64,000 nucleotides of DNA from Amphiscolops sp. MND2022 (taxonomy: Eukaryota): NCBI GenBank assembly GCA_964187785.1, contig OZ076409.1:9302001-9366000 (forward strand), in the 5' to 3' direction. The notes beneath the pieces were generated by a model, which did no database searches, had not been told where the DNA came from, and saw nothing but the letters and a program-made list of their open reading frames with translations. Below are positions 5,641-59,300 of this stretch, in pieces (position 1 is the first letter of the stretch; each line of letters begins with the position of its first letter). The position numbers and the translations under genes are program-made.

Positions 5641-7131
5641 TGTGATAATCCTCTTGTGTGCGGTCCTCATTTATGACCACAGAGTCATTTAGATCGATGT
5701 TTTGTATACTCAAAGGTTGTATTGGCGTTCTAAGTTCATTCATGTTAGATGGCCTGAAAGGATTATCCTTTATTTCACATTCTTGATTTTCTGGGTCAGA
5801 TGCGTTTTCTTCACCGTCCTCATTACTTGTTTATTTCGCGATTCCTGCTCTAGGGGTGTTTCATTCTCGGCATCGTCTGTTTGGTACAGACTGTGTTTTC
5901 CTGTTATTTTTCATTTCTTTCAATATTTTCTCTAACTTCTCATCCATTTCTTTTCTTATGTTTGCTACTTCTTTGTTCGTTTTATCTAATATTCTTCGGG
6001 TCAAGCTTTGCACTTCATTTTCATTCTGTGTTCCACTGTCTAGAGCTATTTCTTCGTCCCTAACTGAACTGACATTTTCAAAGTTACTTGAAGTTTCGAT
6101 AAGAGTTTCATTACCTTGTGATGTTTCTATTTCGGATGTGCTCAACTCTCTCTCAAGCGAGGGTGACTGTCCTCGTCTAGATCTTCTATTCCTCTTGTTA
6201 CCCATTTTAATCAGGTTGAAATGCTGTTTTGGAGAGAAAAATTTCAATTCGAATGGTGAGCAAAGTAAAATTAGGTTGAAATAAAGTTGAAAAAAATGCG
6301 CATAATGTTAAGTTATCAAAGTTGAAACAAAGGTTGTGAGGATTAAAAGAAAGTTCTGATCAGTCTGAAAGTTTTCTGTTGAATGAATAATATTGGGTTT
6401 CTTACTCTCCTTTTTGATTTGAGCTAAATTTAGCAGCATGACAACCAATTTTTGGAATGCCATGGTTACATCACGATTATGTAATCACTAAAATTAGTAC
6501 CCAATTTAATATAAAAATAGGTTTGTAAGTTACATCACTTCTATAAATAGATTCCTGCATGACGAATATTTTCCTGCATTTTGATTGGTCATCACACTAA
6601 CTGTACCAATCCGTTCATCATTAAAGAGAAAACTGTGGCAACACGTAGTATGACTCATATGTAATGCAAGTATCAATTTCAACATAGTGTAGCATGTATG
6701 ATTAAGTCAACGTAATGAGTCATGCACTTGAAAGATAGAGTTGAAAAATGTGATATTGTACTGCATTATGCTGCAAACGTAGTGCGGCAGATTATTTCAA
6801 ATATTAAAGTCCTTATGCATTAATGCATCGTACAAATCATGTATAATTTATTCATTTCACTACAAATTGTGTTAAGCAGTATTATACATCAAATATGTTA
6901 ACACCTTTCAACATTTGGTGAATTGTTCATGAATAGATATTACTTTACAAGTACAGTTAACTAGAATAGCAAACAAATTCAAACGATGCTGGTGTACAAA
7001 GGTCATATATGAATTCATACAAAACAAGGTTCAAGAAGTAAGGAGTTTTCTTCAGTTTGAAATAGTACATGGGCGAGTCATTTGCCTCTATCGCTGCTCT
7101 ACGGGTCCAACACAAGCTCTAGGCTGTGACA
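5641..7131 (-). repeat. 3' LTR of element A (contains a copy of the gag 5' end, ATG at 6205)
   Basis: Highly similar to 20887-22358; bounded by the TSD. Confidence 0.95.
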
Positions 7132-8150
7132 GGCCAGCATTTTTAAAGCAAATGAGTGCAGCCTCGAACCCATCTAGCCCATGACCTGATGTTCCGGTCT
7201 CGCACTGTTTCACCTGGGTATTCAGTCGTAGCTGTATAGGCCATCAGAGCATCAAGGGCAACTTCGTCGTAAGTCCTGCCGCACCAGTGACAATTCCCCT
7301 GAACATGAGGCATAACAGGAGGGTTAAGTTGCCTTCGTAAGGGGTTCCTCTGTTGTTGTGCGTTGTTGTCACTCCGAGCAGGACCCACACCAGCCGTCTC
7401 TATATTGCTATGAGTGCCTTGGGTGTCCAGGTACGACTTACCATTGGCGTTATAATAATATGCAACATTGACAGGCCCACTTGGGTGCAATATTTCTGTG
7501 CTTGGGTTGTATTGGGGTTGTGTCATGTTTTGAGCAGCCAAGTTTGGAAAATGGAGTTGAGCGACGGGCATACCGAACTGGCTTACCGTAGGTGTTTGCA
7601 GTATTCCTCCCCCGTTATATGGGCGAGTGTAGTCCGGTTGGGAAATCTCATGTGGAATTACCACGGGGGTATTTGGTATGGGTCTGATCGGCCCATTTCC
7701 TTGGGCGACAGTTGAAGCGATATTGCTGTCAGTATTAGGCCGCATAGATATTTGGCTTGCTGGTCTTTCAGCTCTTACAGGCAGAACAGCCAACACAGGT
7801 CTACCATAATTGTTTCTAGGGACATTTGCGAAGTTGGCATTTGAAAGCAATTCTTCACTATTGCTTCCACTCGATTCGAAGAATGAAATCGGTGAAATGT
7901 TAGGCAATTCAGTATCTTCTGAGATCATGCTCAGTATCTCCCTCTCGATATCAGTACCTGTGATATCAATCACAGATCCTTCTCTCGACTCAGGTTCGCT
8001 TACGGCGAACAATCTTGCAGCATCCCCATTTACGATTGCGGTCATGGGGTCATTAACTGGTCCCCCGATTCTGAATCTCAGGTCTATGAGTTCTGAGTTG
8101 GGTTGTTCCATGAGAAACTCCTCCCCAGAATTGCTCGAAATATTTATCAA
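7088..8150 (-). CDS. ORF X of element A: orphan protein, disordered N-terminus, conserved CxxC-containing C-terminal domain, one late frameshift, ends inside the 3' LTR
   Basis: 335-aa ORF 7143-8150; homologous to 53888-54679 (FANV.RN.YGRP; NPPVMP.V.G.CxxC; EYP.ET.RDRN.RS). The shifted frame gives CFKNAGLSQPRACVGPVEQR-stop at 7088. Confidence 0.8.
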
Positions 8151-8399
8151 CCCGGGAGAATTTGTAAAACAGAACGCATATCTTCGTCGATTGTGAAGAC
8201 GTGAGAGTTTTTTGGATATCTATTGTCCATTTGAGCTTGAAATTAGCAACTGATTCCTTTCGTGAAAATTCGTAGAATAAAAAGTTTTCACTCCTTTCCA
8301 GTTTGCGAGTGTTTTCCCGGGTTTTAGGGGTGTTGTAAACAATTCTCGGTGTCATCTTTCTTCTAGTTTGTAGTTCCCCGGCAATTCCGTAAGGCGCGT

Positions 8400-9310: not shown

Positions 9311-9311
9311 G

Positions 9312-12300
9312 ATGGTACGCTCTCGAAGTTCTTCCTGGCGGCGGAAAGCATCACCCTCAGTAAGAAGTCATCAGAATCAGCTGATTGCAGGACATTCAAC
9401 ACTGCTACAACATGCGGTAAGCTTGAATTTTGGTTGATTTTTCTGATTGAACTCAGACAGTATTTTCTTTTCTTTGTGACGTCACCGATTTTTGAAAATG
9501 CGAGTGGGCCAGACTCACATTTATTGTTGACTATCTTTCGATTTGTCAATTTCCGGTTTCCAAGTTTTAAGCGGAAATACTAATTGTTTTTTGTTTCAGA
9601 TTCTTCCCCAGCTAAACCGAAACGCAGTGCTGTTAATCCTTCCAAAGCCAATAAAGCTCCAGTAACTCAGCGATCCTTGCTGTTGCGTAGGTGGTCTCGA
9701 AAGCCACAAATAAGCGAAAGTGGTGTCCCGCCGCAGTTAATTCCGCAATTCCTCATAGAAGACAATCTCAATGAGTTTGTTGATCCAGTGGAAAGCGACA
9801 AAGCTGCAGAACTAGCGGAAACTGGAGGTGCGAGTGATTGGGCTCATCGAGAAGTAAACTCTCTTATTAATGCACCAGTGGGGGGCCTCTTACCCAGTAC
9901 TTCTTTTACCACCATTCCCTGTTCACCACGTTTAGATCAAGTTCACACTACAACTCAAAACTCTCCTTTACCAGCTTCCATTGGTAAAAGCGTCTCTCCT
10001 TTTACGAAATTTTTGACTAATTCTCCAGTTCAGGGAGATAATTCAGTCACATCTCCTGTTTCGAAGAACAGGAACACCGGGGCCTTGGAATCGCCACCCA
10101 TCACTGCCACCAGTCCCGGAGACGTCGGAGAAACGAGGCTCGAGCGCATATTGGCGGAAGCTGCAGAGGAAGCGGGCAATAAGGTCTCTTCTCGAGTAAC
10201 CAATCGCGAGGAACACAGTGGTTTATCTAGCCCGGACGGAATGGAGTCTTCACAAGCGACCAGCAAAGCGCTGAAAACCAAGGCTGCCATACAAGGGACT
10301 AAGCCAAGTGGTGAACCCAATGGTAACTCCTCTGGTTCAGACTCTAGCTTTAACTCTGAATCTTCATCTGGTCTCTCTTCGGCTGAAGAAATGGAATCGC
10401 CAGACCCCAAAACTTCGAAATGCAAGAAACAGCCCACTACCACAATGACTACATACAAAAGAGCTAAACCACGATATGTGCTAGCAGGATGGAAGTATCA
10501 TAAACATCCTATCTTGAAATTCTTTGCGACTGCACCCGCCGACGCTGCCAGATATCCACACAAATACAGGTGTCGGGTTTGCCAAGTGGAACTGTCTCTG
10601 ATGACAAAAAGTCCAATAGAGATATTACATCATTATCGCACAGATGCCCACCTCATCAAGGAGCACAGGATAAGAATGGAGACACCAGGGCTTCCCCTGT
10701 TTGATAGAGACTGTAAAGAACTCAGCGGGATGGCCCAAAAGTTGCCCCGAAACTCGGAGATTACTATTTACGGATAGGTCAGCAAGATCAAACTGAGGCC
10801 ATTAACACAGATGATCCCAGTAAAGAGATATTGTCCCTGTTGAACTTGCTCAAGATGGGGCTCATGCGGGGGGGTCAGCTCGAAACAATGATTGCACTTT
10901 GGCATGATCTGGTTAGGGAGACGAAAACGACCGAGCCTATTGTACAACACGACTGGCGGCCTCATCGAGTCCTTGTAATTATTTGTCTGCTGTAAAACTT
11001 AAGAGTTGTTTAAGGTCCATCTTTCATTGTTCGTCAGACATCTCCTTCTTTTCAGGGACTTCTAACCTACATGTTTCGGGAGCTGTTATCATTCTGCATA
11101 ACGTCCATCGAGAGATCCGGGAGCTACTCCCTCAGGATTACAGAGTGTGGCGGAGTGACCCGGCTTTTTGTACACTTTTGAGCAGACAATTCGATGTATG
11201 GGCTTTGTATCGGAGTGTTTCCAGGGCGATTATGCCCCCTGGCTATCTTCTCTCCCTATTGAGTGGTTTCTTCGCGCTAGTTGAGAAAGATGTCCACCTG
11301 CTGTTCCTCACAGGCTTCGATCCCAGGATCACTTGGACTGTGTCACGGGCGTTACCACAGCGTAGAAGAATATGTTCAACCCCTAAATTCGACGCGGAAG
11401 ATCTGGAACGCACGATGTTAGACCCTTCGGTGCAGATTCTCGATCGGTTTGACTTCAGAAGTCTTCTAGACTTCCTTCTAATGCAGCTTCGATCTGCTTG
11501 TGACAGCTCATGGATGTCATCTTTTCCAGATTTTCAACATGTTGGTACCTCCTCATTACATTTACACAATTCTTTTGTTTTCCTCAGTTTTTTAAGGTGC
11601 TCTGAAGATATTTTGATCCAATTTTCCTGTTGTTAGGCCGCCTTTCCGGGTTTCATAAGTCTTCCCTGATAGGAGCCAAATTTTGCGAATTCTGGGGGAT
11701 TTCGAGATTATAGTGGATTTTTCTTTCAACAGAGACCTTGTATGTTGTTTTGCAGCATTTTTAATCTTTTTCGGATCTCGGATAGATATTAATTTCTTTC
11801 TATGCTGTTGAAGGTTTGCGGCACAATGCAGCATAATTAGGTCATTCGTTCTATTTTTTATCAACATTTTGACTCATTACGTAATATGATTAGTCACGAG
11901 TTACTATTCTAGTGTTTCCAAATTTTTGAACGTGCATAACTAGTAATCACATTGACTTCTTCCAGTTCCTTTTCTTCATCTTTTTTTAATGCACGTGATC
12001 TTTAAACTCTGTTTCTTCATTGATTCACTTGGTTTGTTGTACTTTAGACTGTCACTGCTCTGGATAACGATATTCCTCGTGCTGTTGAAATAATGGACCA
12101 TTTGATTACGAACTGGGACAAAGTGCTACAACATTTGAAGTGCAGCAGGAGAATTCCAATGTACCGGTCCCATATGCAGGAGGTTTGTATTCTATACTTT
12201 ATTTTATTTATCTTTCAATCTGTTCCGCGCTGTTTCTGTTCATAAACTGTACAGGTACCTTTAGGGAACAATCTCTCAATCTCATTTGTTTCAGCCTTCT

Positions 12301-13669
12301 GGAATGGACGACTTGTTATTGCGAGATAAAGTTTTTGTTGCTCGCCTGTTTGTTACAAGAAACATCCTTAGCCAATGTAAGTAATCTTCCAATATCCTCT
12401 TCAGTTTCTCTCTGTTTCCCGACTGTTGTTTAGTTCTTTTCTGTTTTTTTGATTGTTGTTTCTTCTTCCTTCGTACTGTCTTCATACTTCCACTATGGCT
12501 TTGTGAGGGTCAATACTGTTTTCTTGTTCTAGACAACTCGACATTCAGTGAGGTCTTCAGTTGAACATCAGGCGGATTTCGACTCTACAATCATTATTGT
12601 GTCTTCGTGTACACTCAGTTGCAAAAGATCTTACCTGATTCCTTTCTCGGGGCAATATCTGATTGGAACAAGTATATGAGCCTCAACATGGACGACGTTA
12701 CCCTGCCCTTTAAGACTGTCGATGACATGCTCCAAGATCACGATCTTTCTGATTTGCTTTCTAAAAGCAAAATGTCTACTCCCCGGCGATTTGTACGCCA
12801 AGTAATTGCGTTCTACAAGCACTTTTTCAAATTGTTGTTGATAAATGACGTGGCCACATCTGCTTTCGTGCGGGGACTCTCCGCATTTGATGAACCAGTG
12901 GTTCGTAGCGGACGAGAAGCAGATTACACTGATGCTAACCAGAGCCTTGCAGGTTATTTTGTTCAGCAGAAATGGATGGCCCCACATACGAAACCCGTCG
13001 TAGTGAGTGAATATTGTTCGCTCGTTACCAAACTGCGTAGTGAGAATTTCCCTACAGTTAAAGACTGGGTTGGGACTTTTTCTTGTCACTATGAAATCCA
13101 ATGCCGGATTGAATTGTTTCACTTTTTTCAAGACTATTGCCAAGCTTTACGAGGACCTTGCCCCGTTCGTTTGCCTTTTAGAGTGACGATCCCCGGGTTG
13201 AAGTCCAGCCTTTCTTCAATTTTCTTCCTGTGTCAGTAGTCTTCAGTGCTCTTTGGCATTGTTCCAGAAATGTGAGAGCCTATTTATGGATTCTGCTGCA
13301 TTGCCACGAGCTTTTGAATTGGTTAAGCGAGGCCCTTCATTAATCCTCAAGAGGAACTTCTCTGTTTGGAATATCTTGTCCTCGACTCATTTCCTTAAAA
13401 CTGGGTTACTGTCTTCACTCAATGGGTATTACGCCAAAAAGGAACGGATCAACGACAGGTCTTGGATTGTGGCGGATGAAACAGCAAATTTGTCCCCTGT
13501 ACGTAGTTCGAGTGCTGAGGGTACTCCTGTGAAACGTGTTCCAGGATCACCTGATTCAACCCCTTCAAACAATCCGGTCGCCCGACGATTGACCGAAGTG
13601 CCAGTTATTTCTGAAGTTCCAGTGAAAGTCATCTCGAGGAAAAAAGGAATGCTAGTGTTCTTTAGTTGA
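9312..13669 (+). pseudogene. Antisense, multi-exon cargo gene of element A (Ser/Pro-rich region, C2H2/BED-like zinc finger, helical body possibly hAT-transposase derived); a few stops and frameshifts
   Basis: ORFs 9584-10777 (YRCRVC...HHYRTDAH), 10983-11540, 12607-13239, 13253-13669. Exons 12048-12182, 12295-12376 and 12533 onward join in frame at GT-AG sites. Homologous to 62659-64000. Confidence 0.8.
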
Positions 13670-16600
13670 AGACTCTTCTCCAAAGTTACCGGCATGGACG
13701 GTTGATCAATTTGATTTGTAATTCTTTTGTACCTTGTTGTATTTATTTGTTTTTCATTTCCACAAGGGAAAAAGAAAGAAAGATTTAGAGAGTTGAATTT
13801 TGTTGATTTTTGTTTTTAATATCTGTATGAATCTGAGAAGTTGGGATTTGAGTTGGGTCGTAAATTGTATTTTTCACCACGTGTATTGGTAGGGGTTTTT
13901 CCTTTTTGAACCTCATCGTTTTCTTGATTTCCATCTGTATTTTCTGGGGATTTTTCTGCATCAAGAGTAGGGTTAGGTTGTAAGTCTTGTTGATTATCAT
14001 TTATATCGAATTCATTTTCTGCATTTTCAGTTGGGTTTCTATATTACGAACGGTAGTTTGTTCTACTGGGGCTCCCCCTCTGTTTTTTGAAATTTCGAGG
14101 GAGGGTGGGTGGTTTATCGGTACATATTCTTGTATGTCATCTTGTTCGTTATCTGGGAGTTTTGTGTCAAATCGGTCTGTACCAAAGTTTGTATCCCATG
14201 TATGGGCATACAGATCATCGTGTAACTATTATGTTGTCATCTTTTTGCCAATCTGTTTCTCTGACAAAATTATTGGCTATTGGTGCGCTAGGTGTACATT
14301 TCCTCAAACGTATTCGGTGTAACAGTTGTGTTTTGTTTGTCCCTAGCCTTCGTACAATGTAATTATTGTTAGGTAGGACTTTTTCGACTTTGTAGGGACC
14401 TATCCAACGGAATTCTCGGAACGGAATTTTTGTTGCTTGTGTGTCTGCCTTTGGGTTCAGTATGTAGCAATAGTCTGTTGTAGTAAGAGGTGCTGCTTTT
14501 GCCTTGCGGTCATAGTATGTTTTATACTTTAAGTATGACTGCATGATATTCTTTTTGGTTTGGTCATTGAGTATCTCCATTCTGCGTTGTATTTCTTCTG
14601 CAATGTCAGACTGTGCAGTATACCGTGGGTTAGGGTTATAGCCTAGCTTGTAGTCTAGGATGTTATGTGGTATCCTGCCGTGGAAAACACGGGTGGGTTC
14701 ACATCCTAAGCTGGCATGATACGTTGTGTTGTGGTTTAAGACAGCCAGTGGTAGGAATTTGTGCCAAATATTGCGAAATTCACCTGTTGCTGCTTTCAAA
14801 TGTGTTTTTACTGTAGCATGAGTGCGTTCTAGCATGCCGATTGTTTGTCCATGTTTTGTCGAAGCATGTTTTAGTTCATTTCCAAGCACTGCTGCTACTT
14901 CGCGGGTGATCTGTGAGTTGAATTGAGTGCCCATGTCAGTTATTATGGTCGTTGGTAAATATGTGTGTTTACACAAAATGTCCATAGTGACTCTTGCGAC
15001 TGTAGGGGGCTGTGATTCGGGTTGTTGGATAAGCAAATAAATATCTTGAGAAGACATCAATTGCTGTTATGGTGTTATCAAACCCTCCACTTGGTGGTAG
15101 ATTAGGTAGGATGTCCATCTGAAGAATATCTTCTGGACCGATTTCCCATTCTGGACAATTTAAAAGTTCTGTTTTTAGTAAATCGTTATTGATGCTTTTG
15201 TTTTGAATGCACATTTGGCAGTTTTGTACACAATTTTTGATGTGCTTTGCCAAGCATGGGTAGTAATATTTCTGTCGTGCTTCCTGTATCATTTTTGTTA
15301 TTCCTGGGTGATTTGCTTTGTGTCCGTGTAATGCTTGTAGGAACTCCTCGACAAGCTGTTTTTGTAAGAGTAGTTGGTAGCGTGAAATTTGTCCGATATC
15401 ATTGTAGTATTTTCGTACAAGAATGTCTCGGCGGATTTCGATGCGGGGTATATTTTGTAGATAATGTTGGTAGCGGTTGTCTTGTGTGGACGCTGACTCA
15501 TCAAAAAGCTCACCCTCTCTTTTTGCTCTGAGATTACGAAGGACTGGGTCATTATTTTGTTCGAGTCGGATTTTTGCGTTGTCTCGGAAATGTCCTTTCG
15601 ATAATCTATTGTTCCGGCAGTTGTTTTATGGAAATTTGTAATTCAGTTATTTCATTTTCCGGTTCGTTGTGTGTTTCTGTTTGTGCTTGATTTCTAATAT
15701 TGTCTTTTTGTTCCCAGAGTGTTTTTTCATCGTTATCATCATCTGGGTGGATGTAAATTTGTTCTTCTTCAGCTATGCCAGAGGATTGTATATTAACCTC
15801 GATAGCTTTTGTTTGTAGGTCGTTACGTAAATTCATTTCTAGTTTTTCTGTCGGGTTGATTTCCGTTCGCGACAAGAAGTCTGCAGCCGTATTCATTGCT
15901 CCTGTCACATGTGCTATGACGAAATTGTACTGCAGGACGTAGTCGCATGCGTTCCATAGTGCTGGGGGAATGATTCGTGTTTGGAAAAATCTGGTGACTG
16001 CTCGGTTGTCGATAAAGACAATTACAGGAAAAGTACTACCCCACATTAGGTGTCCAAATTCTGAGAATGCAAAGAAAATGGCTAAAAACTCTTTCGCATA
16101 TATTGACATTTTTAGTTGGGTTGAGTTGAAAGTTTTTGAGCCGAATGCGATTGGGGCGTATGTTTTGCGTTTGGATTGTAATTTTTGTTGAGGGTCGTCT
16201 TCAATCATAATCGCATATCCTGCAGCTGTAAAACTGGCATCTGACATGACGATTAGTTGTTTGTCTTTAAGTGGTTGTTTGAGTGCCATTTGGCAAGATT
16301 GAAGGAGGAGGGTGTTTAACTGTTCAAAATTGCTTGTAAATTCAGTAGCAATGTAGAATTTGTTGGTTTCCTTCAGTAGTTTGAAGAAAGGGGTGAGTCG
16401 TTCCGAAAAGCGTGGTATACAATTTTGTAATAATTCAGAAAACCAATAAACCTTTAAAGGCCTTTTTTGGATTTGGAGAGTTTAAGTTTCGCTAAGAAAT
16501 CTTTGACTTTGTCTACTTGGGGAGAAACTCCTTCAGGTGTGATCGTTCTTCCCAGGAAGTCGACCTGTTTGACTCCAAAATGGCATTTTGACATTGACAA

Positions 16601-18765
16601 TTTCATTCCTGCGTTCCGTATACATTCAAAGACTGCTCGGATGTTTATACACAGCTGTGTCACTGTGTTTGCTGCAAGTCCGATGTCATCGACGTATTGG
16701 GCGCATTGGTCTGCTTTGATGAGGGTGTCTAAGTATTCCCTTATGAAACCGGAGAATGCTGAAAGTGATCGGCTAGGGCCTTGTGCTATCCGCCGATACG
16801 CAAAGGTTCGGCTAGCAAAGTTAAAGGCCAACATCTGAATTGATTGGTAATCTGCCATCTGAAGGCAGTGGTACGCTTGTGAACAGTCAAGTTTACAAAA
16901 AAAATTTCTTTCCTGCCATATGTTGGGCTGCATCGGAAAGTGTACCGACTGGGTGGTTGTTATTTACGTAGTCTTCGGAGATGAGATTCTTCATCTTGCG
17001 CAAGTCGACTAAGAGTCGCAAACGACCATTAGATTTTCGTTTCGCATATTTAGACTTGCGTATTTAGAGAAAGGTAGAGTTGTTATTATACCATACTTGT
17101 GAAGTAGGGCAAGTTCTACCGTGATGTCATCTTTTAGGTTGATCGGAGTTGGAAGACTTCGACTGTATGCTGGTCGATCATCATTTGGTGTGAGTTTGAC
17201 TTTGAATTTTTTTTTTGTTCCGATGTCAAACCTGTGTCTGGCAAAAATTTATGAAATTCAACCGGCAGTTCTTCCACTTTTTGTCGTTCGAAAAGAGTGA
17301 GTGTTGTGTCACTCCAATCAAAAGTGTCTAGAAACGTTTTGCGTGATTTTTTGTCGTCTTGTGGGTTGAGTTTTTCTAGTGTTTGAAGTTCCACTAGTTC
17401 ATCAAACATTCGTTTCTGAATGGGTGTATATGTTGTGGGGTCTCCAGGTTGTTCCGGTGTTGGGAACCAGTATTGTTCCGTTTTGTCTTCTTTGTCGTTT
17501 ACTTTTAAAAGTTCATTGAGGTATACGTCCGTAACTTCAGTATGTTGGTGCATGATGAATGTTAGCATTGAGGGGTTGATTGGTTTAATATGTTGCAACT
17601 GTTCTGGGGTTAAAACTCGAAAGTCGGCTAGGTGTTTGTCTGTTGTGATTGTATATGGTAGTTCTGAGAAAGTACATATTTGGTATCCGACTGCGTAATT
17701 GTTGACTGTGCAGAGGGAAGATACAAGGAAAAGTGTGTCATGATCCTCAAGGTGCGTAGATGGCGTTACTATGCCTGTTGCATCATGATCAATTAAATGT
17801 GGCATTCTGCTCGCAATGAGCATCGTTTCACCCGGTTGCAGTGTGTATGTTGCTTCTGCAAGTAGTGGTGTTCATTGTCGTGTTGGAAGATTGTGTTCTG
17901 GTTTCAATTGCATTGATAAATGTGGAAAAGTTATTATTCCTTGTCGGATGTCAAAAATGGCATTGTTCCTTTTTAGGAAACAAAGTCCATTTAGGGGGTT
18001 GGGGAAAGACTTTCATGACAATCATGAAGAACATAAAATCTGCCACTTCAAATGTTAGGCAGACTGTTCCGATTGGCGTTTCCAATTGTCCGTTTGCTAC
18101 CATTATTTGAAAATTGGGTGCAGGACCTGTGTCTGTTATTGCTTCTGGTGCAAGAAGTTTGATTTTATTTAGGTCTTGTTCCGATATTGCGCTCGTGAGA
18201 GCTCCGGTATCGATTAGACCGTCAAGTGTAAGCTTTTCGAAATCCATCGGAAAGTAATATATATGGGGTTTACTTTTAATGTCAGGTTGGTTGATAGAAG
18301 AAGCATTGGTATATCTGTTTCTTTATTAATCGTAAGATGATTTGGAATTTCGTCATCTATGAGGGGTAATTTTGGTATTGATGCAGATTCGGTTGGTGTT
18401 ACATATGAGTCTTGTGTTTGGAGAGGTTCAAAATTGTTTTTCGGAAGAGGTTCTGGTAAATTTTGTGGTGAGGTTTCGGGTTCAGATTCAAACAGATTTT
18501 CTGTTTTTTTCGTTACTTATGTCAAGGTGTGTGGTTATGTATCTGTCAGGGGCGTCTCTGTATATTTCATACAGGTCGTCCTCTGATTCATTTTGTTGAG
18601 TTCCTGGAGTCTGAGAGTCGGTCTGTTGTGTGAAAGTGTTTGTTTTTATTGGGTGAGGAGTTGGATGCTGCCAGTCATCTTTCTCCTCTGGTTTTGTAGG
18701 GCGTGGCTTTATTAGTTTAAATCCTTCGATGATGAAGGTTGTTGTCTGGGTGCTTTCGGGTTAAA

Positions 18766-20460
18766 ATGTTGTTGGAGTTTTTGTAATTTTCAATGTGTTT
18801 TTTCTGTGCTTCGGTTAGTGTCCACATCGGGGGGCGATTTTCCATATTTGCTCCGAAGTAGCATGTTGGTTCCTCATGTCCTGGTGCGTTACAATGCGCA
18901 CAGCGTATGACATCAGGGTCTTCTTCCAGCTTACGACGTTTTGCTAGTTTAGCGCAGTCTGCTGCCTTGTGCCCTGTGTTTTTCCAATAACGACATTGGT
19001 CATCTTGCAATGTATTGTTGGGCACCGTTTTTGGTGTTTATTGCTTCTTTTTTGTTGTTGCAGTTTTCTGCTGAGGTGGTTTGTCTTCTGCTTGTTTGTT
19101 TAATACCGTCATTTGCGTTTTAACGCCAGTGATTCGAGTCCATTTAATTCCATCTCACGTTCGAGATGTCGGACTATTTGCTCGTATGTTCCATTTTCAA
19201 GATAGGCTTGATTAATAGAACGTTTCAAGTGTGGTGGCATTTTTGCATAAAATAGATTTTCTATCATTTGTGATGCAATGTCACCGAAGGCTTTTTCGGT
19301 GCTTTCTTGTAGTTCTTCTAAGAAGTGTGGTAGTTTCTGGCGTTCCGGGTCAAAAACCAAGCGATGAAATCTATGTTTTGCGGGTTGTGGGTTGAGTTTT
19401 TCTAGTGTTTGAAGTTCCACTAGTTCATCAAACATTCGTTTCTGAATGGGTGTATATGTTGTGGGGTCTCCAGGTTGTTCCGGTGTTGGGAACCAGTATT
19501 GTTCCGTTTTGTCTTCTTTGTCGTTTACTTTTAAAAGTTCATTGAGGTATACGTCCGTAACTTCAGTATGTTGGTGCATGATGAATGTTAGCATTGAGGG
19601 GTTGATTGGTTTAATATGTTGCAACTGTTCTGGGGTTAAAACTCGAAAGTCGGCTAGGTGTTTGTCTGTTGTGATTGTATATGGTAGTTCTGAGAAAGTA
19701 CATATTTGGTATCCGACTGCGTAATTGTTGACTGTGCAGAGGGAAGATACAAGGAAAAGTGTGTCATGATCCTCAAGGTGCGTAGATGGCGTTACTATGC
19801 CTGTTGCATCATGATCAATTAAATGTGGCATTCTGCTCGCAATGTTTGTTGGAGTTTTTGTAATTTTCAATGTGTTTTTTCTGTGCTTCGGTTAGTGTCC
19901 ACATCGGGGGGCGATTTTCCATATTTGCTCCGAAGTAGCATGTTGGTTCCTCATGTCCTGGTGCGTTACAATGCGCACAGCGTATGACATCAGGGTCTTC
20001 TTCCAGCTTACGACGTTTTGCTAGTTTAGCGCAGTCTGCTGCCTTGTGCCCTGTGTTTTTCCAATAACGACATTGGTCATCTTGCAATGTATTGTTGGGC
20101 ACCGTTTTTGGTGTTTATTGCTTCTTTTTTGTTGTTGCAGTTTTCTGCTGAGGTGGTTTGTCTTCTGCTTGTTTGTTTATTACCGTCATTTGCGTTTTAA
20201 CGCCAGTGATTCGAGTCCATTTAATTCCATCTCACGTTCGAGATGTCGGACTATTTGCTCGTATGTTCCATTTTCAAGATAGGCTTGATTAATAGAACGT
20301 TTCAAGTGTGGTGGCATTTTTGCATAAAATAGATTTTCTATCATTTGTGATGCAATGTCACCGAAGGCTTTTTCGGTGCTTTCTTGTAATTCTTCTAAGA
20401 AGTGTGGTAGTTTCTGGCGTTCCGGGTCAAAAACCAAGCGATGAAATCTATGTTTTGCGG
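18766..20460 (-). repeat. Internal complex duplication in element A
   Basis: ~19385-19843 repeats ~17359-17817 and ~19844-20460 repeats ~18766-19383; near-identical translations in the ORF track. Confidence 0.9.
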
Positions 20461-20869
20461 ACGCACTAGATTCGGGCTTGACAGATTTTCTCCGAAACAC
20501 TACCAGTATATCTCCAAGTGTGGTTGTTGGTGTTCGCTGAATATTTTTAAATGTTTTAAATGCTAATCCACGCAAATGTGCGTGAAAATGATTTATTTTC
20601 ATTTCCTCAGTTAATGTGGGTTGAATTCTGAGTGTTGTATGGAAAAGATCTTCGAAATACTCGAATTTCTCATTCTTTTCCAATTTCCCATTGAAGGTGG
20701 GTGTATTTTTCGGATGAAAGAGTGATAGTTGTGAATTACGACTCGCTAATTTCTCAATAGCCTTTGCTATTTGGTTAACGGGGTCTTGCTGGATGTTGAG
20801 TGGTTCAGCAATCAGATGTTCATTGTGTGTTGTTGTTGTATTGTTTGAGCTTTGAGGATGAAGTGGTTT

Positions 20870-20886: not shown

Positions 20887-22358
20887 TGTGATAATCCTCT
20901 TGTGTGCGGTCCTCATTTATGACCACAGAGTCATTTAGTGTCATCTGTTTTGGTAGTGACCACAGAGTCATCATGTTTTGTATACTCAAAGGTTGTATTG
21001 GCGTTCTAAGTTCATTCATGTTAGATGGCCTGAAAGGATTATCCTGTATTTCACATTCTTGATTTTCTGGCTCAGATGCGTTTTCTTCACCGTCCTCATT
21101 ACTTGTGTATTTCAAGGTTCCTGCTCTAGGGGTGTTTTGTTCTCGGCATCGTCTGTTTGGTACGGACTGTGTTCTCCTGTTATTTTTCATCTCTTTCAAT
21201 ATTTTCTCTAACTTCTCATCCATTTCTTTTCTTAAGTTTGCTTCTTTTTTGTTCGTTTTATCTAATATTCTTTGGGTCCAGATTTGCATTTCATTTTCAT
21301 TCTGTGTTCCACTGTCTAGAGCTGTTTCTTCGTCCCTAACTGAACTGGCATTTTCAAAGTTACTTAAAGTTTCGATAAGTTTCATTACCTTGTGATTTTT
21401 CTATTTCGGATGTGCTCAACTCTCTCTCAAGCGAGGGTGACTGTCCTCGTCTAGATCTTCTATTCCTCTTGTTACCCGTTTTAATCAGGTTAAAATGCTG
21501 TTTTGGAGAGAAGAATTTCAATTAGAATGATGAGCAATGTAAAATTAGGTTGAAATAAAGTTGAAGAAAATGCGCATAATGTTAAGTTATCAAAGTTGAA
21601 ACAAAAGTTGTGAGGATGAAAAGAAAGGTCTGATCAGTCTGAAAGTTTTCTGTATAATGAATAATATTGGGTTTCTTACTCTCCTTTTTGATTTGAGCTA
21701 AATTATAAAAATCACTAAACATAGTACCCAATTTAATATAAAAATAGGTTTGTAAGTTACATCACTTCTATAAATAGATTCCTGCATGACGAATATTTTC
21801 CTGTATTTTGATTGGTCATCACACTAACTGTACCAATCCGTTCATCGTTAATGAGAAAAATGTGACAACACATAGTATGACTCATATGTAATGCAAGTAT
21901 CAATTTCAACATAGTGTAGCATGTATGATTAAGTCAACGTAATGAGTCATGCACTTAAAAGATAGAGTTGAAAAATGTGATATTGAACTGCATTGTGCTG
22001 CAAACGTAGTGCGGCAGATTGATTCAAATATTAAAGTCCTTATGCATTAATGCATCGTACAAATCATGTATAATTTATTCATTTCACTACAAATTGTGTT
22101 AAGCAGTATTATACATCAAATATGTTAACACCTTTCAACATTTGGTGAATTGTTCATGAATGGATATTACTTTACAAGTACAGTTAACTAGAATAGCAAA
22201 CAAATTCAAACAATGCTGGTGTACAAAAGTCATATATGAATTCATACAAAACAAGGTTCAAGAAGTAAGGAGTTTTCTTCAGTTTGAAATAGTAGATGGG
22301 CGAGTCATTTGCCTCTATCGCTGCTCTACGGGTCCAACACAAACTCTAGGCTGTGACA
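20887..22358 (-). repeat. 5' LTR of element A
   Basis: Direct repeat of 5641-7131; carries a short local duplication near 20940 and a ~50-bp deletion near 21703 relative to the 3' LTR. Confidence 0.95.
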
Positions 22359-36733: not shown

Positions 36734-36739
36734 GTGTAC

Positions 36740-53331: not shown

Positions 53332-53759
53332 AATTTGTTCAAGTTCCACATATTAGCATAAATTTAGCTCTCACAAATTGTGAACAAGAATTATGAGTCA
53401 GATCAGTATCTAGTGATGAATGAAATTTACGCTTCTAATACTTCACATGTATACCAATGTAAAACAGAACTCAGTTTGAAATAAAAACAACAAATATGAA
53501 ATTACATGACTAAGTTATGATGTTAGGGGGATTGGTTTATAGTCCTTGTTGAACAAGTAAAGTTGATAATCTGCTAAAAACCGGGTTTGACAGTTTCTAG
53601 TTTCCTTACAAATTGCCCCATGGCTCCAACACAACAGTGGGGTTGTGACAGTCCCGTACTTTTTCAAAGGAAAATAGAGCTGCAACAAGCCCGTCGACCG
53701 AGGATCTGAACCTTCCATTCATGTCCCAGACTGCCTCCCTGTCCTCCCCCGGAGAACGA

Positions 53760-54679
53760 ATGCAGTCAGACGCGGCCCTAGATCTGATAAACATATCTAG
53801 CAGTTCAGACGAAGGATTTGTAGTGTAACCTTTGACTTTGACTGAAATGAAAGATAGGTTCAGAGTCGCTCTTCATCAATTGCGAGCATGCCCGTTGCCT
53901 TCATAGGATCTACGGAAGCTTCGTTGTTCGTGACCAACTCAATGGAAACAGAATCACGAGGATGCATAGATACAAGGGGGATAACTATTGAGTCCGAACT
54001 GATGGACTTGTTGAACGATATACCTGACATTTCCCCAGTGACATTCATCGATAGCTCAGAAGAAGAGATGGACCCATTTCCAGAAGCTAACTTTGCGAAT
54101 GTGCAAAGAAATGCATATGGACGTCCCACACAAAGAGTATATCCTATCCCTAGACCCCAAGTTACAAACCCGGGACAACGACCAGAAGCAACACGTGACA
54201 TCAATCCTCCGACGATACCTAGTCAGGTGAGTGCTTTCACAGCATATATTGCCCCGCAACAAAGGACAGCTGACTTTAATGCACGACCAGTTCAACAAGC
54301 CGCATACCTGCCGATGCCTGTGCCATTCTACCCCAATGGGTGGAACAACCAAGGTTGTGGGCCGGTTAACAACAATGCACACTCAATCCCATCAAACAAC
54401 GCCTTTCCCCAGAATGGACCAATACTCCAGATGAACCCACCCGTTATGCCCGAAGTTGCGGGATACTGCTCCAGTTGCATGAAAACAAACGATCACATTG
54501 CAGTTGAAACCTTGACTAGCTACATTGCCTGGTCAGAATACCCTGAAGAAACTATTCGAGATCGGAATATGAGGTCGAGAGCTTTTGTGGACGGGTTTGG
54601 AGCAGCCCTGATCTGTTTTAAAAATGCTGGACTGTCGCCCGGTTACCCTTGCGAGATGTCCGGGGTGCAGCACCGGTAA
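53760..54679 (+). CDS. ORF X homologue lying upstream of the D LTR (N-terminus disrupted)
   Basis: LINISSSSDEGF near 53780 matches INISSNSGEEF of A; 263-aa ORF 53888-54679 shares the C-terminal domain. Confidence 0.8.
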
Positions 54680-56366
54680 GCAGATCAGTACTGCATCATC
54701 CTTCACAATGCCCGAAGACCCAATGCCAGCCTTATGAACTTTGAAAAACATTCAAACTAAACCATAAACTGAGACATTTGTTCTCAAATAACTGTTCTCG
54801 TTGCTATTTCTTATGTTTGTTTAAGTTAAACCGTTAGTTGATGTTGGTTTTTGTGGACTTACGTCCTGTTTGATTTACATGTGACAACGGCCTAACCGTT
54901 GAAAAAAGACAAAGAAAAAGACAAAAGCTCAATAAACTAGTCATTAGTGACGATGTTACTAATCTGACCAGATCCAAATCTCTGTTTTGCTCCACAGTTA
55001 TATTGTAGGAAATTGTGGTATACATGACAGTAATTTCAATATTTTAGTCAAGTTACATCATGGTTATGCAAGAAGTGTGTGAAATCAGTATGATGTTTTA
55101 TCTTGAATGCAGCATGACAAAATATCCCTCCAAAATAGTACTAAATTATGCTGCTTTATACGGTTTGTAATGATCGGCATATTCGGTATTTTTAGTAAAA
55201 CAGCATAATATGGATATATATACTGTCGCTTATGCTTTATACCGTATTATACTGGAAATGCTCAAAAACAGCATGATGATTTAACTCAAAAACGGCATAT
55301 GAAGGAAACTCTGGAAAACAGCATGATGTTCACACTCGAGAACAGCATAATGACCGCCAGCACCACGGCACTGTTCAATCGTACTGTATTATGCGGTTTT
55401 CATGAAACTGCATATGCAGAATTATATCGGAAAACAGCATAAATTGCATAATATTACACATTAATCCGCCGCTACATTGATGCTTTATGTAGACCTTCTT
55501 GGGACATGATTTCATGATTTATTTTTAACTTCTGACCCTAGAAACATGACGTAATGACGATTTTTGTAAAAATGCTGGTCATGCTACTAAAAATATTACC
55601 CAATGAAATCATTTTGTAGATACTTTTGAAATCAGTGTTTCCATTATCATTCGACAAGATAAGATGCAGAAATCAGTCACTCTAAATCAGAGAACTGCTT
55701 TCCATCAATTCCAAACTTTGCAGTTTCTTTCATTGTAAAGATAACTCCAAATTTTCATTTCTACAATATCTTTGAATATCAAAGATTTCCCTCAACTTGA
55801 AGTAGTTTTCAACATGGGAAATAGAAGGAACAGACGTACAAGGAGAAATGAGTCTCAGTCTCCAGAGAGAGATGAGAATATGTCAGAAACAAGCCTTCTA
55901 CAAGGTAATGCGACTTTAACTAATGTTTCTGAAATTGTTAATAACGTTTTTGACAGGAACTTAGGTAGCGAACTAACGGAACCATCACAAATCAGTAATG
56001 AGATAGAAATAATTTCTCAAAGGCTGTCTGAACAAAACAGTAACAAGATGACACAGATAGAACACCAGTTGAATAACAAATTTGAAGAAATACTTAAAGA
56101 AATCAGAGCAAACAAAAACTGTAACACAATAACTGATGAGGAGGACGTTGAGAGTAGACAGGCAGGTCCTTCAAATGCAAAACCCAAGGGTCTCAGGAAC
56201 AAACACGCATCGAACATGACAATAGAAAGAGATCAGGATGATCGGTTTTACTCGTCTGAAATGAGTGAATTAAGGCAACCATATACTCCGATTGGAATTA
56301 CAGATGAGACTTTAGATGAGACCATAATAATAAACGAAAACAGACAGGAAAATGCCGATCATCACA
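54633..56366 (+). repeat. Inferred ~1.7-kb LTR of element D
   Basis: Start placed by analogy to A (AAAAATGCTGGAC then TGTCGCC); ends TCACA before the PBS TGGTGACAGG at 56367. Partner LTR is not in the window. Confidence 0.7.
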
Positions 56367-59300
56367 TGGTGACAGGACCTACCAAGAACATCCTGAGACA
56401 AAATTCCAGTAATTCCAACACAACAAACCCAGTGGGACCACACGCAGAAACTCTTTTTGAACACCCTCAATCATCAGATCCTGTTAGCCAAATTGCTTTA
56501 GCAATCAAAAAACTGGCACATAAAAACCAAGAACTCTCAATCGTCCACCCGAAAAATACACTTACCTTCAATGGTAAACTAGAAAAAAACGAAATGTTCG
56601 AATACTTCGAAGATCTTTTCCACACAACACTTAAAATGCAACCACGTCTCACGGAAGAAGTGAAAATAAACCACTTTCACGCCCACCTCAGAGGGCTAGC
56701 ACTGAAAACATTCAAAAATATACAACGAACACCCACAACAACACTCGAAGACATCTTGGTAGTCTTCCGCAGAACGTATGTAAAGCCTGAATCTAGTGCT
56801 TCAGCCAAACATAGATTTAACAAACTTGTGTTCCAACCTGAAAACCAGAAGCTACCTGACTTTCTTGAAGACAAGAGAGTGCAGAAATAGCATTTGGGGA
56901 AGCAGCGCCACAAATGATCGAATGCCTCCTATACCAAAATGCCTCCCCACTTAAAGAAATCCATCAACCATGCGTACCTTGAAAACGGTACATACGAACA
57001 AATCGTACGACACTTAGAACGCGAAATGGAGCTCAATGGACTCGAAGCAGATGAACCCCTTGTCAAAACACAGATGACAGCAGTAAAACAACAAACAAAC
57101 GTACAAAACACCAAATCTCAGCCACAAAACACAAAAACAAAAAAAAACCCCAAACACAGTCCCCAATAACACGCTCCAGAACAACCAATGTCGCTATTGC
57201 AAGGAAGAAGGTCACATAGCAAAAGAGTGCCCCAAACTTGCAAAACGACAAAAATTGGACAATGATTCAGATGCACCACGATGCGCCCATTGTAACACTA
57301 CAGGTCATGAAGAACCCAATTGTTATTTTGGAGACAACATGGAAAATCGCCCACCCAAGTGGACTCTCACAGAAACTCAACAAAAACTCATTGATGAGTA
57401 TTAAAAATCAAACAAACCCATCAACCCCCGAAACTCGAAACCTTCAACATCGAAGGATTTAAAATAATAAAGCCACGCCTTCAAATAACATCACCACAAA
57501 AACAACTCTCAGCAGATGACTGGCAGCATCCGCCGAGTCCAAAACCTATAAAAATCACAGTCTTCGATCACAACTCGACCAACAAAAACGACTCACATAC
57601 TACAAACACACAAACTACCACACCCGATAACCCATCTGAGGATCTATATGACTTACTCATGGATGCCCCAGATAACTACATACTCCGCCAAACCTTCGAA
57701 CCTGAAATCGAGCTGGAAACAGAAAATCAACACCCCAATACTTCATACACTCAAGAAAACCAAACCGAACACCCAAACACACAATCCACATCAACAACTC
57801 AAACTGACAATGAAACCATGTCAGGATTAACAAAAACTTTTTTTAATGCATCACCTGGGAAACAACCCCTCCTTGACAATGATGTTTTCAATCATCTAAC
57901 TACAGATGAAGGCAACAACATCATGTACTTAAACCTCTCAACAAACCTAACCCTCAAAAAGAAACGTCATATGTATTATTTCCCATGGATTTCGAAAAAT
58001 TAACCCTGGATGGACTCATAGATACAGGCGCCCTCACCAGTGCCTTTTCTGAAGCAGATCTCAATAAAATTAAACTACTATCCAATGAAGCAATCAAAGA
58101 CACAGGTCCAGCACCAAACTTCCAAATCATGGTGGCAAATGGTCAACTGGAACGCCCCATTGGAACTGTCCTACTTGAATTCGAAGTAGCAGACTTCCAA
58201 TTTCAAGAAAATTTCATCGTCATGAAAACACTACCCAATCCACTCATTGGATTGTGTTTTCTACAAAGACACAATGCCCTTTTTGATATTCGACAAGGAA
58301 TAATATCATTCCCATATTTGTCAATGCAGCTACGACCTGAACACACAACAAACACCCGAGTAGCAACACCTTTGTTGACTGAAACTACCTACACCCTGCA
58401 ACCCGGAGAAACTCTTGCAATCCTCAGCAAAATGCCCCATTTAATAGACCACAATGCAACAGGAACTGTGACTCCGTCTTCACACATGGAGGAACACGAA
58501 AGCATTTTCATTACCTCCTCACTCAGTACGGTAAACAACAATGCAGTATGTTACCAAGTGATTAACTTCTCAGATATGCCTTACACTCCTCCCGTGGATA
58601 CACATATGGCAGATTTCCGAGTACTAACCCCAGAACAAATCAAACACATCAAACCAGTTGACCCATCAACTCTCACCATCATGATGCACCAACACATCGA
58701 AAATACGGATCTATACCTCAACCAACTGATGAAAACAAATCAATCGTCAGACGAACAAGAAACGTACTGGTTCCCGACACCTGAACAACCCGGTGATCCG
58801 ACAACATATACGCCCATTCAACAAAAAAATTTTGACGAACTCACAGAACTTAAACAACTTGAACAACTAAACCCAAACGACAGCGAAGAATCAAAAAAGA
58901 AATTCCTCGACCATTTCGACTGGACCGACACCACTCTCAGCCCATTCGAAAAACAACACATTGAAGACATTCTTGTACAATATCACGACATCTTTGCCAG
59001 ACATCGTTTTGACATTGGCACTAACAGAGAATTTAAGGTTAAATTGACGCATAATGATGATAGACCAGCCTACAGCCAAAGTCTCCCTACGCCAATCAAC
59101 CTCAAGGATGACATAACTGTTGAACTGGCCCTACTCCATCGTTATGGAATCATCACGACCTTACCTTTCTCTAAATATGCAAGCCCCATCTTTGCTCAGC
59201 GAAAACCAAATGGACGTCTCCGCTTTTTGGTGGACCTTCGCAAAATCAACAAACTCATCACACAAGACTACGTAAACAACAACCACCCAGTCAGCACTTT

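What the first reader, a model, noticed from the sequence alone, without database searches (positions are those of the whole stretch)
9312..13669. Gypsy family carrying a conserved antisense, spliced zinc-finger gene between pol and the 3' LTR
Seen: inside TSD-bounded element A, a ~4.4-kb opposite-strand gene with a CxxC...H...H finger (~10571-10652). Exons ...11540, 12048-12182, 12295-12376 and 12533... join in frame at GT-AG sites. Element D has a diverged homologue in the same position and orientation, so this is inherited family cargo rather than a one-off nested insertion. Established: introns on the strand opposite the genomic RNA survive retrotransposition. Inference: the finger plus AVEIMDHLITNWDKVLQHL suggests a hAT/BED-transposase-derived protein; I saw no SA..ER.FS catalytic motif, so it may be repurposed, e.g. 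for targeting or anti-silencing.
Basis: partly seen in the sequence, partly recalled or inferred. Interest (0 to 1): 0.9.

Follow-up and report, generated by a model that had tools for sequence, protein, structure and literature searches.

The report
Retrotransposon carrying spliced antisense transposase-like gene
A very abundant family of Gypsy-type jumping genes in an animal genome carries, on its opposite strand, its own six-exon gene for a zinc-finger protein that looks like a disabled DNA-transposon enzyme; the gene is kept by selection and has been swapped between element lineages.

Summary
Element A (LTRs 5674-7131 and 20957-22358, pol on the minus strand) has a plus-strand gene between pol and the 3' LTR. 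There are two more introns: a 5' one (9417-9599, after an ATG exon 9312-9416) and an 81-nt one (10975-11055). That makes six exons and 1,117 codons.

A's own copy is broken, and none of 14 close copies is open throughout. Exons are conserved while introns drift. dN/dS is about 0.2. Of 40 copies chosen by pol, 36 carry the gene in place. Element D and its family carry a 37-42% identical homologue with the same exon order; most of D's gene lies beyond the window end.

No Pfam or PDB sequence match exists. Predicted folds show an RNase H-like core and a helical domain, and the hAT transposase Hermes is the best hit for both, though weakly. The catalytic acids are not conserved.

The gene cassette is far more diverged than the adjoining pol, so lineages have exchanged it by recombination. 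No TSD, no TIRs and no RNA data were found. This is a new variant of the antisense accessory genes known from plant Gypsy elements.

The parts
5674..7131 (-). 3' LTR of element A (TG...CA ends)
   Evidence: 95-97% identical to 20957-22358; ends read; no TSD seen
7143..8219 (-). ORF3, a sense-strand open frame of 358 aa between the antisense gene and the 3' LTR
   Evidence: Open in A. tblastn gave protein hits to all 18 other oriented loci (L001-L017, L019); best stretches were 52-86% identical, weaker stretches down to 36%. No Pfam family
9312..9416 (+). Exon 0 of the antisense gene: ATG plus a basic N-terminus (MVRSRSSS.RRK...)
   Evidence: ATG and donor GGTAAGCT are conserved across cassette types, with third-position changes. 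The exon is 106 nt in 10 of 11 other close copies and 105 in A
9417..9599 (+). Intron 0, with blocks conserved across all cassette types (GTGACGTCAC at 9476-9485, TTGGCCAGACTC, GATTTGTCAACTTCCGG)
   Evidence: Alignment of 12 copies. It is as conserved as the exons. RNA-structure signal is weak
9600..10974 (+). Exon 1: low-complexity Ser/Pro-rich part, KRAKPR basic patch, CxxC...H...H finger (10571-10651), helical region
   Evidence: 47 database relatives. A has a 34-nt gap at 10741 relative to the other copies
10975..11055 (+).
   Evidence: GTAAGT...TTTCAG kept while the interior diverges with indels. Database ORFs stop just after this donor
11056..11540 (+). Exon 2: helix, then beta1-beta2-beta3-alpha1-beta4-alpha2 (RNase H-like core)
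   Evidence: AlphaFold2 model at pLDDT 68.6. Hermes is the top hit in Foldseek and VIA
11541..12047 (+). Intron 2
   Evidence: GT-AG; unalignable between cassette types
12048..12182 (+). Exon 3 (45 codons, holds AVEIMDHLITNWDKVLQHL)
12183..12294 (+). Intron 3
12295..12376 (+). Exon 4 (82 nt, ends in phase 1)
12377..12532 (+). Intron 4
12533..13665 (+). Exon 5 (376 codons in open copies): all-helical domain plus a disordered basic tail; frame-shifted in A
   Evidence: Open in 5 of 12 close copies. Model pLDDT above 90 for residues 11-200. 169 database relatives
14215..20730 (-). gag-pol of element A (integrase 14215-15625, RNase H 15606-16481, RT 16454-16963), with an internal duplication
   Evidence: Pfam hits; duplication
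20957..22358 (-). 5' LTR of element A
53751..56366 (+). 5' LTR of element D (its 3' LTR lies 4383-6999 bases beyond the window end)
   Evidence: 97.7% identical over 2,617 nt
56532..62015 (+). gag-pol of element D, 72% identical in DNA to A's
62662..63858 (-). Exon 5 of D's antisense gene (399 codons, open). Exon 4 starts at 63934-64000 and exons 3 to 1 lie beyond the window end
   Evidence: tblastn at 37-42% identity with the same exon order; open frame; exon 2 of D has one stop

Best explanation
Shown: this is an accessory gene of a Ty3/Gypsy retrotransposon lineage in an animal genome. It lies between pol and a third sense ORF, on the strand opposite to the genomic RNA.

Inferred from conservation and from established knowledge of antisense-intron cassettes: the gene has its own start region and five GT-AG introns. 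These are invisible to the spliceosome on the sense RNA, so they are copied at every round of retrotransposition.

The protein has 1,117 aa. It carries a basic, NLS-like N-terminus, a long Ser/Pro-rich linker and a CxxC...H...H finger. Then come an RNase H-like core without the catalytic acids and a large helical domain. The best guess is an old, catalytically dead hAT-type transposase.

Inferred: the protein is made from antisense transcripts. It acts in the nucleus as a DNA- or chromatin-binding helper of the element, in transcription control, integration-site choice or defence against silencing. It is not a cut-and-paste enzyme.

Shown: selection has kept it through the split of at least two Gypsy families, and lineages have exchanged whole gene cassettes by recombination.
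For: Position and spread.
- 8 of 8 newly fetched pol-selected copies have the gene next to pol; 7 of 8 have exons 1, 2 and 5.
- By coordinates, 36 of 40 pol places have an exon-5 match 546-815 nt away in 34 cases, on the right side and strand.
- D's family gives 28 of 40 as a lower bound.
- First-look candidates number 6,442 for exon 5 against 6,985 for pol.

Gene structure.
- Exons align across cassettes while introns do not, and GT-AG is kept.
- Exon against intron identity is 0.848 against 0.796, and 0.839 against 0.770.

Selection.
- In exon 5, dN/dS is 0.16-0.26 in 9 of 10 close pairs, and 0.68 in one pair with dS 0.015.
- Between cassette types pN is 0.16-0.47 with synonymous sites saturated.

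Fold.
- The exon 2 model has RNase H topology. Its top 8 Foldseek rows are Hermes chains, with E 3.2e-3 to 2.5e-2 and probability 0.96-0.99.
- VIA puts Hermes first for exon 2: Z 6.1, rmsd 4.0, 120 aligned.
- For the exon 5 model, Hermes is the only chain of 48,161 with Z of 5 or more: Z 5.2, rmsd 10.0, 164 aligned.
- The nearest named Atlas clusters are all FAM200-ZBED5 RNase-like, zf-C2H2_12 or DUF4371, with scores 0.83-0.88, which counts as a lead only.

Loss of catalysis. The invariant residues after beta4 are G87 and F88. The next residue is D, A, T or S by lineage, and no acid is conserved in beta1.

Recombination.
- At the pol 3' end, pS between L001 and L015, L016 or L017 is 0.12-0.18. 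Exon 5 pS for L001 against L015 or L016 is 0.83-0.84.
- L012 has the more distant pol (pS 0.38) but the closer cassette, with exons 85% identical.
- Similarity to other types stops at about 9585 and resumes at about 13786, right after the pol stop.
Against: - No RNA evidence: no RNA run was listed, so transcription, splicing and the start site are all inferred.
- 0 of 14 close copies (A, L001-L013) are open over the whole coding sequence. A working protein in this subfamily today is therefore not shown.
- The hAT link fails at the sequence level. No Pfam family matched any exon or any of 68 and 72 aligned members. PDB profiles gave nothing. hhalign against five full-length hAT transposases of this genome gave probability under 1%.
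- Structural scores are under the tool's own caution line (Z below 8). In the second look, Hermes (Z 5.7) ties with retroviral integrase cores (Z 5.6).
- dN/dS was computed only on copies whose exon 5 is open.
- Context in other species could not be seen.
- The function itself is a guess by analogy.
Confidence: 0.6

Rival explanations
1. The fold is RNase H-like but the gene is not of hAT origin. It descends from another DDE transposase or integrase, or from a host gene, and the Hermes hits reflect only the shared superfamily fold.
For: Hermes, ISCth4 transposase and lentiviral integrases score within 1 Z unit of each other: 6.1, 5.7 and 5.2, and 5.7 against 5.6. No hAT Pfam model or hAT profile matches. 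DUF4371 was not found in this genome, though that search rang nowhere.
Against: Hermes is first in three searches on two separately modelled parts, and in colinear order. Exon 2 matches from Hermes residue 153 on, and exon 5 matches Hermes 368-609. Hermes covers 120 residues against 77-104 for integrases. The order of finger, RNase H core and large helical domain is the hAT order. The finger is CxxC...H...H, not the HHCC of integrases. The Atlas neighbours are all hAT-derived families.
Confidence: 0.25
2. The gene is a passenger or a brake, not a helper. It uses the retrotransposon as a vehicle, or it encodes a repressor that limits the element. Selection then acts on the gene or on the host, not on transposition efficiency.
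For: An antisense gene acts in trans, so it need not favour its own copy. Antisense transcription can itself feed small-RNA silencing, as discussed for plant aORFs in PMC7264820 (passages read). Cassette exchange between lineages fits a semi-independent module.
Against: The gene was retained in nearly every sampled copy of two families that share only 72% pol identity. It was retained through thousands of insertions. This is hard to explain for a pure passenger of 4.4 kb, since loss variants would spread unless the gene pays.
Confidence: 0.15
3. The gene came from independent nested insertions of a DNA transposon into different Gypsy copies.
For: hAT elements are abundant in this genome: 2,215 first-look candidates and open frames up to 697 aa. 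A weak 17-18-nt low-complexity inverted pair lies at 9138-9156 and 13770-13796.
Against: The gene has the same position, orientation and exon order in all sampled copies and in family D. There is no 8-bp TSD. The inverted pair is one of 16 chance-level pairs in 6 kb. Introns are unusual for such an origin.
Confidence: 0.02
4. The gene is a decayed relic with no function, and the frames are open by chance or youth.
For: A's copy and all 14 close copies examined carry disabling lesions.
Against: dN/dS is about 0.2 and exons are more conserved than introns. Exon 5 frames of 390-460 aa without stops appear in most of the 104 and 105 scored matches. The protein is conserved down to 37% identity with intron positions kept.
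Confidence: 0.03

Closest known systems
Antisense additional ORFs (aORF-3R) of plant Ty3/Gypsy elements: Retand (TRP28 domain), Grande (gene23), RIRE2. Passages read in PMC7264820 and PMC11963269.
   Same: An opposite-strand gene between pol and the 3' LTR, present in nearly all family members. It is thought to be nuclear and DNA-binding, its function is unknown, and one carries a domain named after a transposase.
   Different: The host here is an animal. The gene has five introns, while the word 'intron' occurs 0 times in either paper's main text. There is no TRP28 or any other Pfam match. The protein is much larger (1,117 aa) with an RNase H-like core. Cassette exchange is shown here.
Antisense genes of deltaretroviruses (HTLV-1 HBZ and relatives), named in PMC11963269; details are recalled.
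   Same: A retroelement encoding a regulatory protein on the strand opposite to its genomic RNA.
   Different: No sequence or fold relation was tested. HBZ is a small bZIP protein driven from the 3' LTR (recalled). Here there is an internal start region and a transposase-like fold.
hAT transposases (Hermes; PDB 2bw3, 4d1q, 8edg) and hAT-derived host proteins (ZBED5, FAM200, GTF2IRD2, SCAND3).
   Same: The domain order is N-terminal CxxC...H...H finger, RNase H-like core, then a large helical domain. Hermes is the best structural match for both modelled parts. The nearest language-model clusters are these families. Like the domesticated forms, the gene lacks TIRs.
   Different: There is no detectable sequence similarity. 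The catalytic acids are not conserved. The gene is carried inside a retrotransposon and is split by five introns.
Bdelloid rotifer LTR elements that captured extra ORFs (PMC5408684; passages read).
   Same: Animal LTR retrotransposons with family-wide accessory ORFs that are shared between lineages.
   Different: Judging from the abstract and one passage, those ORF3s are listed as env, DEDDy, GDSL, CC and TM types. 'Antisense' occurs once (about small RNAs) and 'intron' 0 times.

Membership tests
Ty3/Gypsy LTR retrotransposon (the carrier) | Two LTRs with TG...CA ends | tested here: met
   5674-7131 and 20957-22358, 95-97% identical. D's LTRs are 97.7% identical
Ty3/Gypsy LTR retrotransposon (the carrier) | pol domain order RT, RNase H, integrase | tested here: met
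   On the minus strand: RVT_1 at 16454-16963, RT_RNaseH at 15606-16481, Integrase_H2C2 at 14969-15625
Ty3/Gypsy LTR retrotransposon (the carrier) | Target-site duplication of 4-6 bp | tested here: not met
   A's flanks are ATTTA and TGTGC. D's flanks are CCCCC and GACTG
hAT superfamily transposase or hAT-derived protein | RNase H-like catalytic core fold | tested here: met
   The model shows beta1-3, alpha1, beta4, alpha2. Hermes is top in Foldseek (E 3.2e-3, probability 0.99) and in VIA (Z 6.1, rmsd 4.0, 120 aligned). It ties with integrases
hAT superfamily transposase or hAT-derived protein | DDE catalytic residues | tested here: not met
   No conserved acid in beta1. After beta4 come invariant G87 and F88, then D, A, T or S by lineage. 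The E position was not assessed
hAT superfamily transposase or hAT-derived protein | N-terminal BED-type zinc finger | tested here: inconclusive
   CxxC-x15-HH-x5-H is present and invariant. zf-BED matched 0 of 68 members. hhalign placed the finger on the hAT finger only at E 0.076
hAT superfamily transposase or hAT-derived protein | Helical insertion domain plus C-terminal hAT dimerisation region (PF05699) | tested here: inconclusive
   PF05699 matched 0 of 72 exon-5 members. One of 68 members of the other alignment matched at E 0.16. In the fold search Hermes 368-609 was the only chain with Z of 5 or more, but rmsd was 10.0
hAT superfamily transposase or hAT-derived protein | Profile similarity to bona fide hAT transposases | tested here: not met
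   hhalign of A1, A2 and A3 against five full-length hAT transposases of this genome gave probabilities of 0.04-0.74%. The hAT profile was thin, with only 5 sequences
hAT superfamily transposase or hAT-derived protein | TIRs and 8-bp TSD around the unit | tested here: not met
   This is expected if the capture is old
FAM200/ZBED5/GTF2IRD2-type (Buster-derived) proteins | Match to PF27073, PF14291 or PF18658 | tested here: inconclusive
   Atlas feature neighbours score 0.83-0.88. hmmscan found no PF14291 or PF18658. Whether PF27073 is in the local Pfam copy is unknown
Plant Retand-type antisense aORF (TRP28) | Antisense ORF between pol and the 3' LTR in nearly all members | tested here: met
Plant Retand-type antisense aORF (TRP28) | Transposase_28 (PF04195) domain; flowering-plant host | tested here: not met
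   No Pfam hit. The genome is an animal's: 114 cadherin matches and 0 chlorophyll a/b matches

The most novel reading that the evidence does not exclude
A retrotransposon and a DNA transposon have merged into one lasting unit. An ancient Gypsy lineage of animals captured a hAT-type transposase gene, introns included. It turned the gene into a dead-enzyme DNA-binding partner that the element needs, for example to steer integration or to switch on its own LTR. The element now keeps it as an exchangeable cassette. Deeply diverged alleles (synonymous sites saturated) are shuffled onto near-identical gag-pol backbones, as would be expected if the cassette sets a specificity that is under frequency-dependent or arms-race selection.
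Probability: 0.2. Interest if true: 0.85.

Novelty: new variant of a known kind. Interest (0 to 1): 0.72.

Why it matters
Antisense accessory genes of LTR retrotransposons are known from plants, and their function is still open. Here an animal genome holds thousands of copies of such a gene. It has five introns kept through retrotransposition, clear purifying selection and a recognisable transposase-like fold. It belongs to a protein family of about 170 unannotated clusters in public data.

This gives a tractable case for asking what an antisense gene does for a retroelement. It also shows that retroelement lineages trade whole gene modules. And it flags a large protein family that gene callers and Pfam currently miss, which will be mis-annotated as host zinc-finger genes.

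Tried and rejected
- RNA evidence: no RNA holder was listed for 9200-13800.
- Self-association of the exon-5 domain (two copies, residues 1-310): no verdict.
- Context in other species: the search for related loci found no relative in metagenome contigs or viral contigs. Two earlier tries failed because the alignments lacked a conserved stretch.
- Full-length gene models: the 'longer' search found none. All relatives are exon-sized frames from ENA assemblies without names. One weak 1,236-aa hit, named a copper chaperone by its source, is probably spurious.
- Atlas search with exon 5: no usable hit.
- Earlier findings of this scan: none by place or by sequence.
- Foldseek of the exon-5 model against PDB: best E 1.2.
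- DUF4371 in this genome: no match, but the control rang nowhere.
- TIR/TSD around the gene: only chance-level inverted pairs.
- RNA structure in intron 0: -7.6 kcal/mol with little covariation. One 'compensated' pair only keeps a DNA palindrome.
- Literature: five searches turned up plant aORF papers and rotifer ORF3s. None described an intron-bearing antisense gene in an animal LTR element. The held library lacks most subscription journals.
Full report
**What is there**

The window is part of a 1.07-Gb genome. The genome is an animal's: it has 114 cadherin-domain matches and no chlorophyll a/b-binding match.

Element A is an LTR retrotransposon on the minus strand.
- Its LTRs are 5674-7131 and 20957-22358. 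They are 95.0% and 97.2% identical over two blocks, with TG...CA ends.
- Reverse transcriptase, RNase H and integrase follow in the Gypsy order along the minus strand.
- I found no target-site duplication. The flanks read ..ATTTA and TGTGC...

Three units lie between the pol stop (about 13816) and the 3' LTR: the plus-strand gene of the finding, a start region, and a sense-strand ORF3 at 7143-8219.

**The gene**

Comparing A with 18 other copies fetched from the same genome fixes the structure.

| Part | Coordinates | Note |
|---|---|---|
| Exon 0 | 9312-9416 | ATG, MVRSRSSS.RRK... |
| Intron 0 | 9417-9599 | |
| Exon 1 | 9600-10974 | |
| Intron 1 | 10975-11055 | 81 nt |
| Exon 2 | 11056-11540 | |
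| Intron 2 | 11541-12047 | |
| Exon 3 | 12048-12182 | |
| Intron 3 | 12183-12294 | |
| Exon 4 | 12295-12376 | |
| Intron 4 | 12377-12532 | |
| Exon 5 | 12533-13665 | |

- In the close copies the exon lengths are 106, 1412, 486, 135, 82 and 1133 nt. That gives 3,354 nt, or 1,117 codons plus the stop.
- Across 14 copies all 70 donors are GT and 67 of 70 acceptors are AG.
- A's own copy is broken in several places. None of the 14 close copies is open over the whole coding sequence.
- Single exons are often open. Exon 5 is open in 5 of 12 close copies.

**Real gene or chance?**

- Between cassette types that share only about 70% DNA identity, blastn and tblastn matches fall on the exons. The introns cannot be aligned, yet they keep GT...AG.
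- Between closer types, exons are more alike than introns: 0.848 against 0.796, and 0.839 against 0.770.
- For exon 5, Nei-Gojobori dN/dS is 0.16-0.26 in 9 of 10 close pairs. One pair gave 0.68 at dS 0.015.
- Between types, pN is 0.16-0.47 with synonymous sites saturated. Only copies with an open exon 5 entered this count.

**Is it family cargo?**

- I took the best pol matches of the genome that had not been fetched before. 8 of 8 had the gene beside pol in the same orientation, and 7 of 8 had exons 1, 2 and 5.
- By coordinates alone, 36 of 40 pol places have an exon-5 match on the expected side and strand.
- Of the four misses, two do carry the gene: the window's own copy and the copy at locus L021. 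Only 103 of 6,442 candidates were scored.

Element D has LTRs at 53751-56366 and at 4383-6999 beyond the window end, 97.7% identical. Its pol is 72% identical to A's.
- D carries a homologue on the opposite strand at the same place, with the same exon order and 37-42% protein identity.
- Its exon 5 is open (399 codons, 62662-63858) and its exon 2 has one stop.
- In D's family at least 28 of 40 pol places have the gene.

No TIR or 8-bp duplication brackets the gene.

**What does it encode?**

- No exon matches any Pfam family. Nor do any of the 68 and 72 aligned relatives scanned one by one.
- Profiles find nothing among PDB sequences.
- Relatives are plentiful but anonymous. Exon 5 has 169 cluster representatives at E of 0.001 or better, and 33 at 1e-30 or better. 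Exon 1 has 47 relatives and exon 2 has 26.
- All are exon-sized frames from ENA assemblies, with no usable name. Those that reach the end of exon 1 stop just after the intron-1 donor. That intron is therefore old.

AlphaFold2 with these alignments gave two models.
- Exon 5 folds into a confident all-helical domain. Mean pLDDT is 77.0, and residues 11-200 are above 90.
- Exon 2 folds as helix, beta1, beta2, beta3, alpha1, beta4, alpha2, which is the RNase H-like core. Mean pLDDT is 68.6.

Structure searches gave these results.
- Foldseek put eight Hermes (hAT transposase) chains at the top for exon 2, with E 3.2e-3 to 2.5e-2.
- VIA-align put Hermes first for exon 2: Z 6.1, rmsd 4.0, 120 aligned.
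- For exon 5, Hermes was the only chain with Z of 5 or more: Z 5.2, rmsd 10.0, 164 aligned.
- These scores are below the tool's caution line. In the second look Hermes ties with integrase cores.

The Atlas neighbours of the finger-plus-core piece are all hAT-derived families, scoring 0.83-0.88, which is a lead only. Profile comparison with five full-length hAT transposases of this genome gave nothing.

The positions where the catalytic aspartates should sit are not conserved. I therefore read the protein as a finger plus a dead RNase H-like core plus a helical domain. It is probably, though not certainly, of hAT descent.

**An extra finding: cassettes are exchanged**

- Copies whose pol 3' end is 87-92% identical to A's carry cassettes only about 55% identical in protein, or about 70% in DNA.
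- At synonymous sites the pol end differs by 0.12-0.18 between L001 and L015, L016 or L017. Exon 5 differs by 0.83-0.84 for L001 against L015 or L016.
- L012 shows the reverse pattern. Its pol is more distant (pS 0.38) but its cassette is closer.
- Similarity ends at about 9585 and resumes at about 13786, just after the pol stop.
- ORF3 is a second variable module. A's ORF3 is 52-57% identical to that of its nearest cassette relatives, but 74-75% identical to that of L014 and L019.

**How it likely works**

Introns on the strand opposite to the genomic RNA are not spliced from it, so they are copied. This is established for antisense-intron reporter cassettes (recalled). The gene would be transcribed from its own start region.

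Intron 0 holds blocks conserved across all cassette types. One is a 10-bp palindrome that changes from GTGACGTCAC to GAGACGTCTC and stays a palindrome. This suggests a protein-binding DNA site rather than an RNA structure.

The function of the protein is inferred only: a nuclear DNA- or chromatin-binding helper of the element.

**Comparison and novelty**

Antisense ORFs between pol and the 3' LTR are a known trait of plant Retand, Grande and RIRE2 elements. Their function is unknown (PMC7264820 and PMC11963269, passages read). Neither text mentions introns.

Five literature searches found no animal case. The library is incomplete. I rate this a new variant of a known kind.

Noticed in passing
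window 7143-8219 (minus strand): A third, sense-strand ORF of 358 aa lies between the antisense gene and the 3' LTR. It is Pro/Gln/Asn-rich with a conserved C-terminal ...NCHWCGRTYDE... motif. tblastn found it in all 18 other oriented loci (L001-L017, L019); best stretches are 52-86% identical, weaker ones down to 36%. It has no Pfam family. It is a second module with lineage-discordant similarity.
   Followed up: partly
window 9417-9599: The first intron of the antisense gene holds blocks conserved across cassette types whose other introns cannot be aligned: GTGACGTCAC at 9476-9485, TTGGCCAGACTC, and GATTTGTCAACTTCCGG. The palindrome changes on both sides and stays a palindrome. This may be a promoter or enhancer, or a binding site. 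RNA-structure support is weak.
   Followed up: partly
window 17346-20460: There is an internal duplication in A's gag-pol. 17346-17818 matches 19373-19844 (99.2%) and 18765-19383 matches 19841-20460 (99.5%). About 1.1 kb is therefore repeated with the middle left out.
   Followed up: no
window 5674 and 22358; 53751 and beyond the window end: Neither element A nor element D shows a target-site duplication at its LTR ends. This may point to recombination between copies.
   Followed up: partly
window 40898-44385 and 52688-53743: Three LTR-like blocks share segments in different combinations: 40898-41552 matches 43419-44072, 41541-42187 matches 52996-53743, and 44072-44385 matches 52688-53002. Short tandem repeats lie around 41567-41780 and 53023-53332. 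This looks like another, rearranged or nested, LTR element.
   Followed up: no
window 28001-40000: This is a long stretch of low G+C (0.33-0.36) with strong positive GC skew (0.26-0.50). The cause was not examined.
   Followed up: no
genome-wide (loci L028-L038): hAT DNA transposons are abundant in this genome. There are 2,215 first-look candidates for the hAT dimerisation domain, and several open frames of 597-697 aa.
   Followed up: partly
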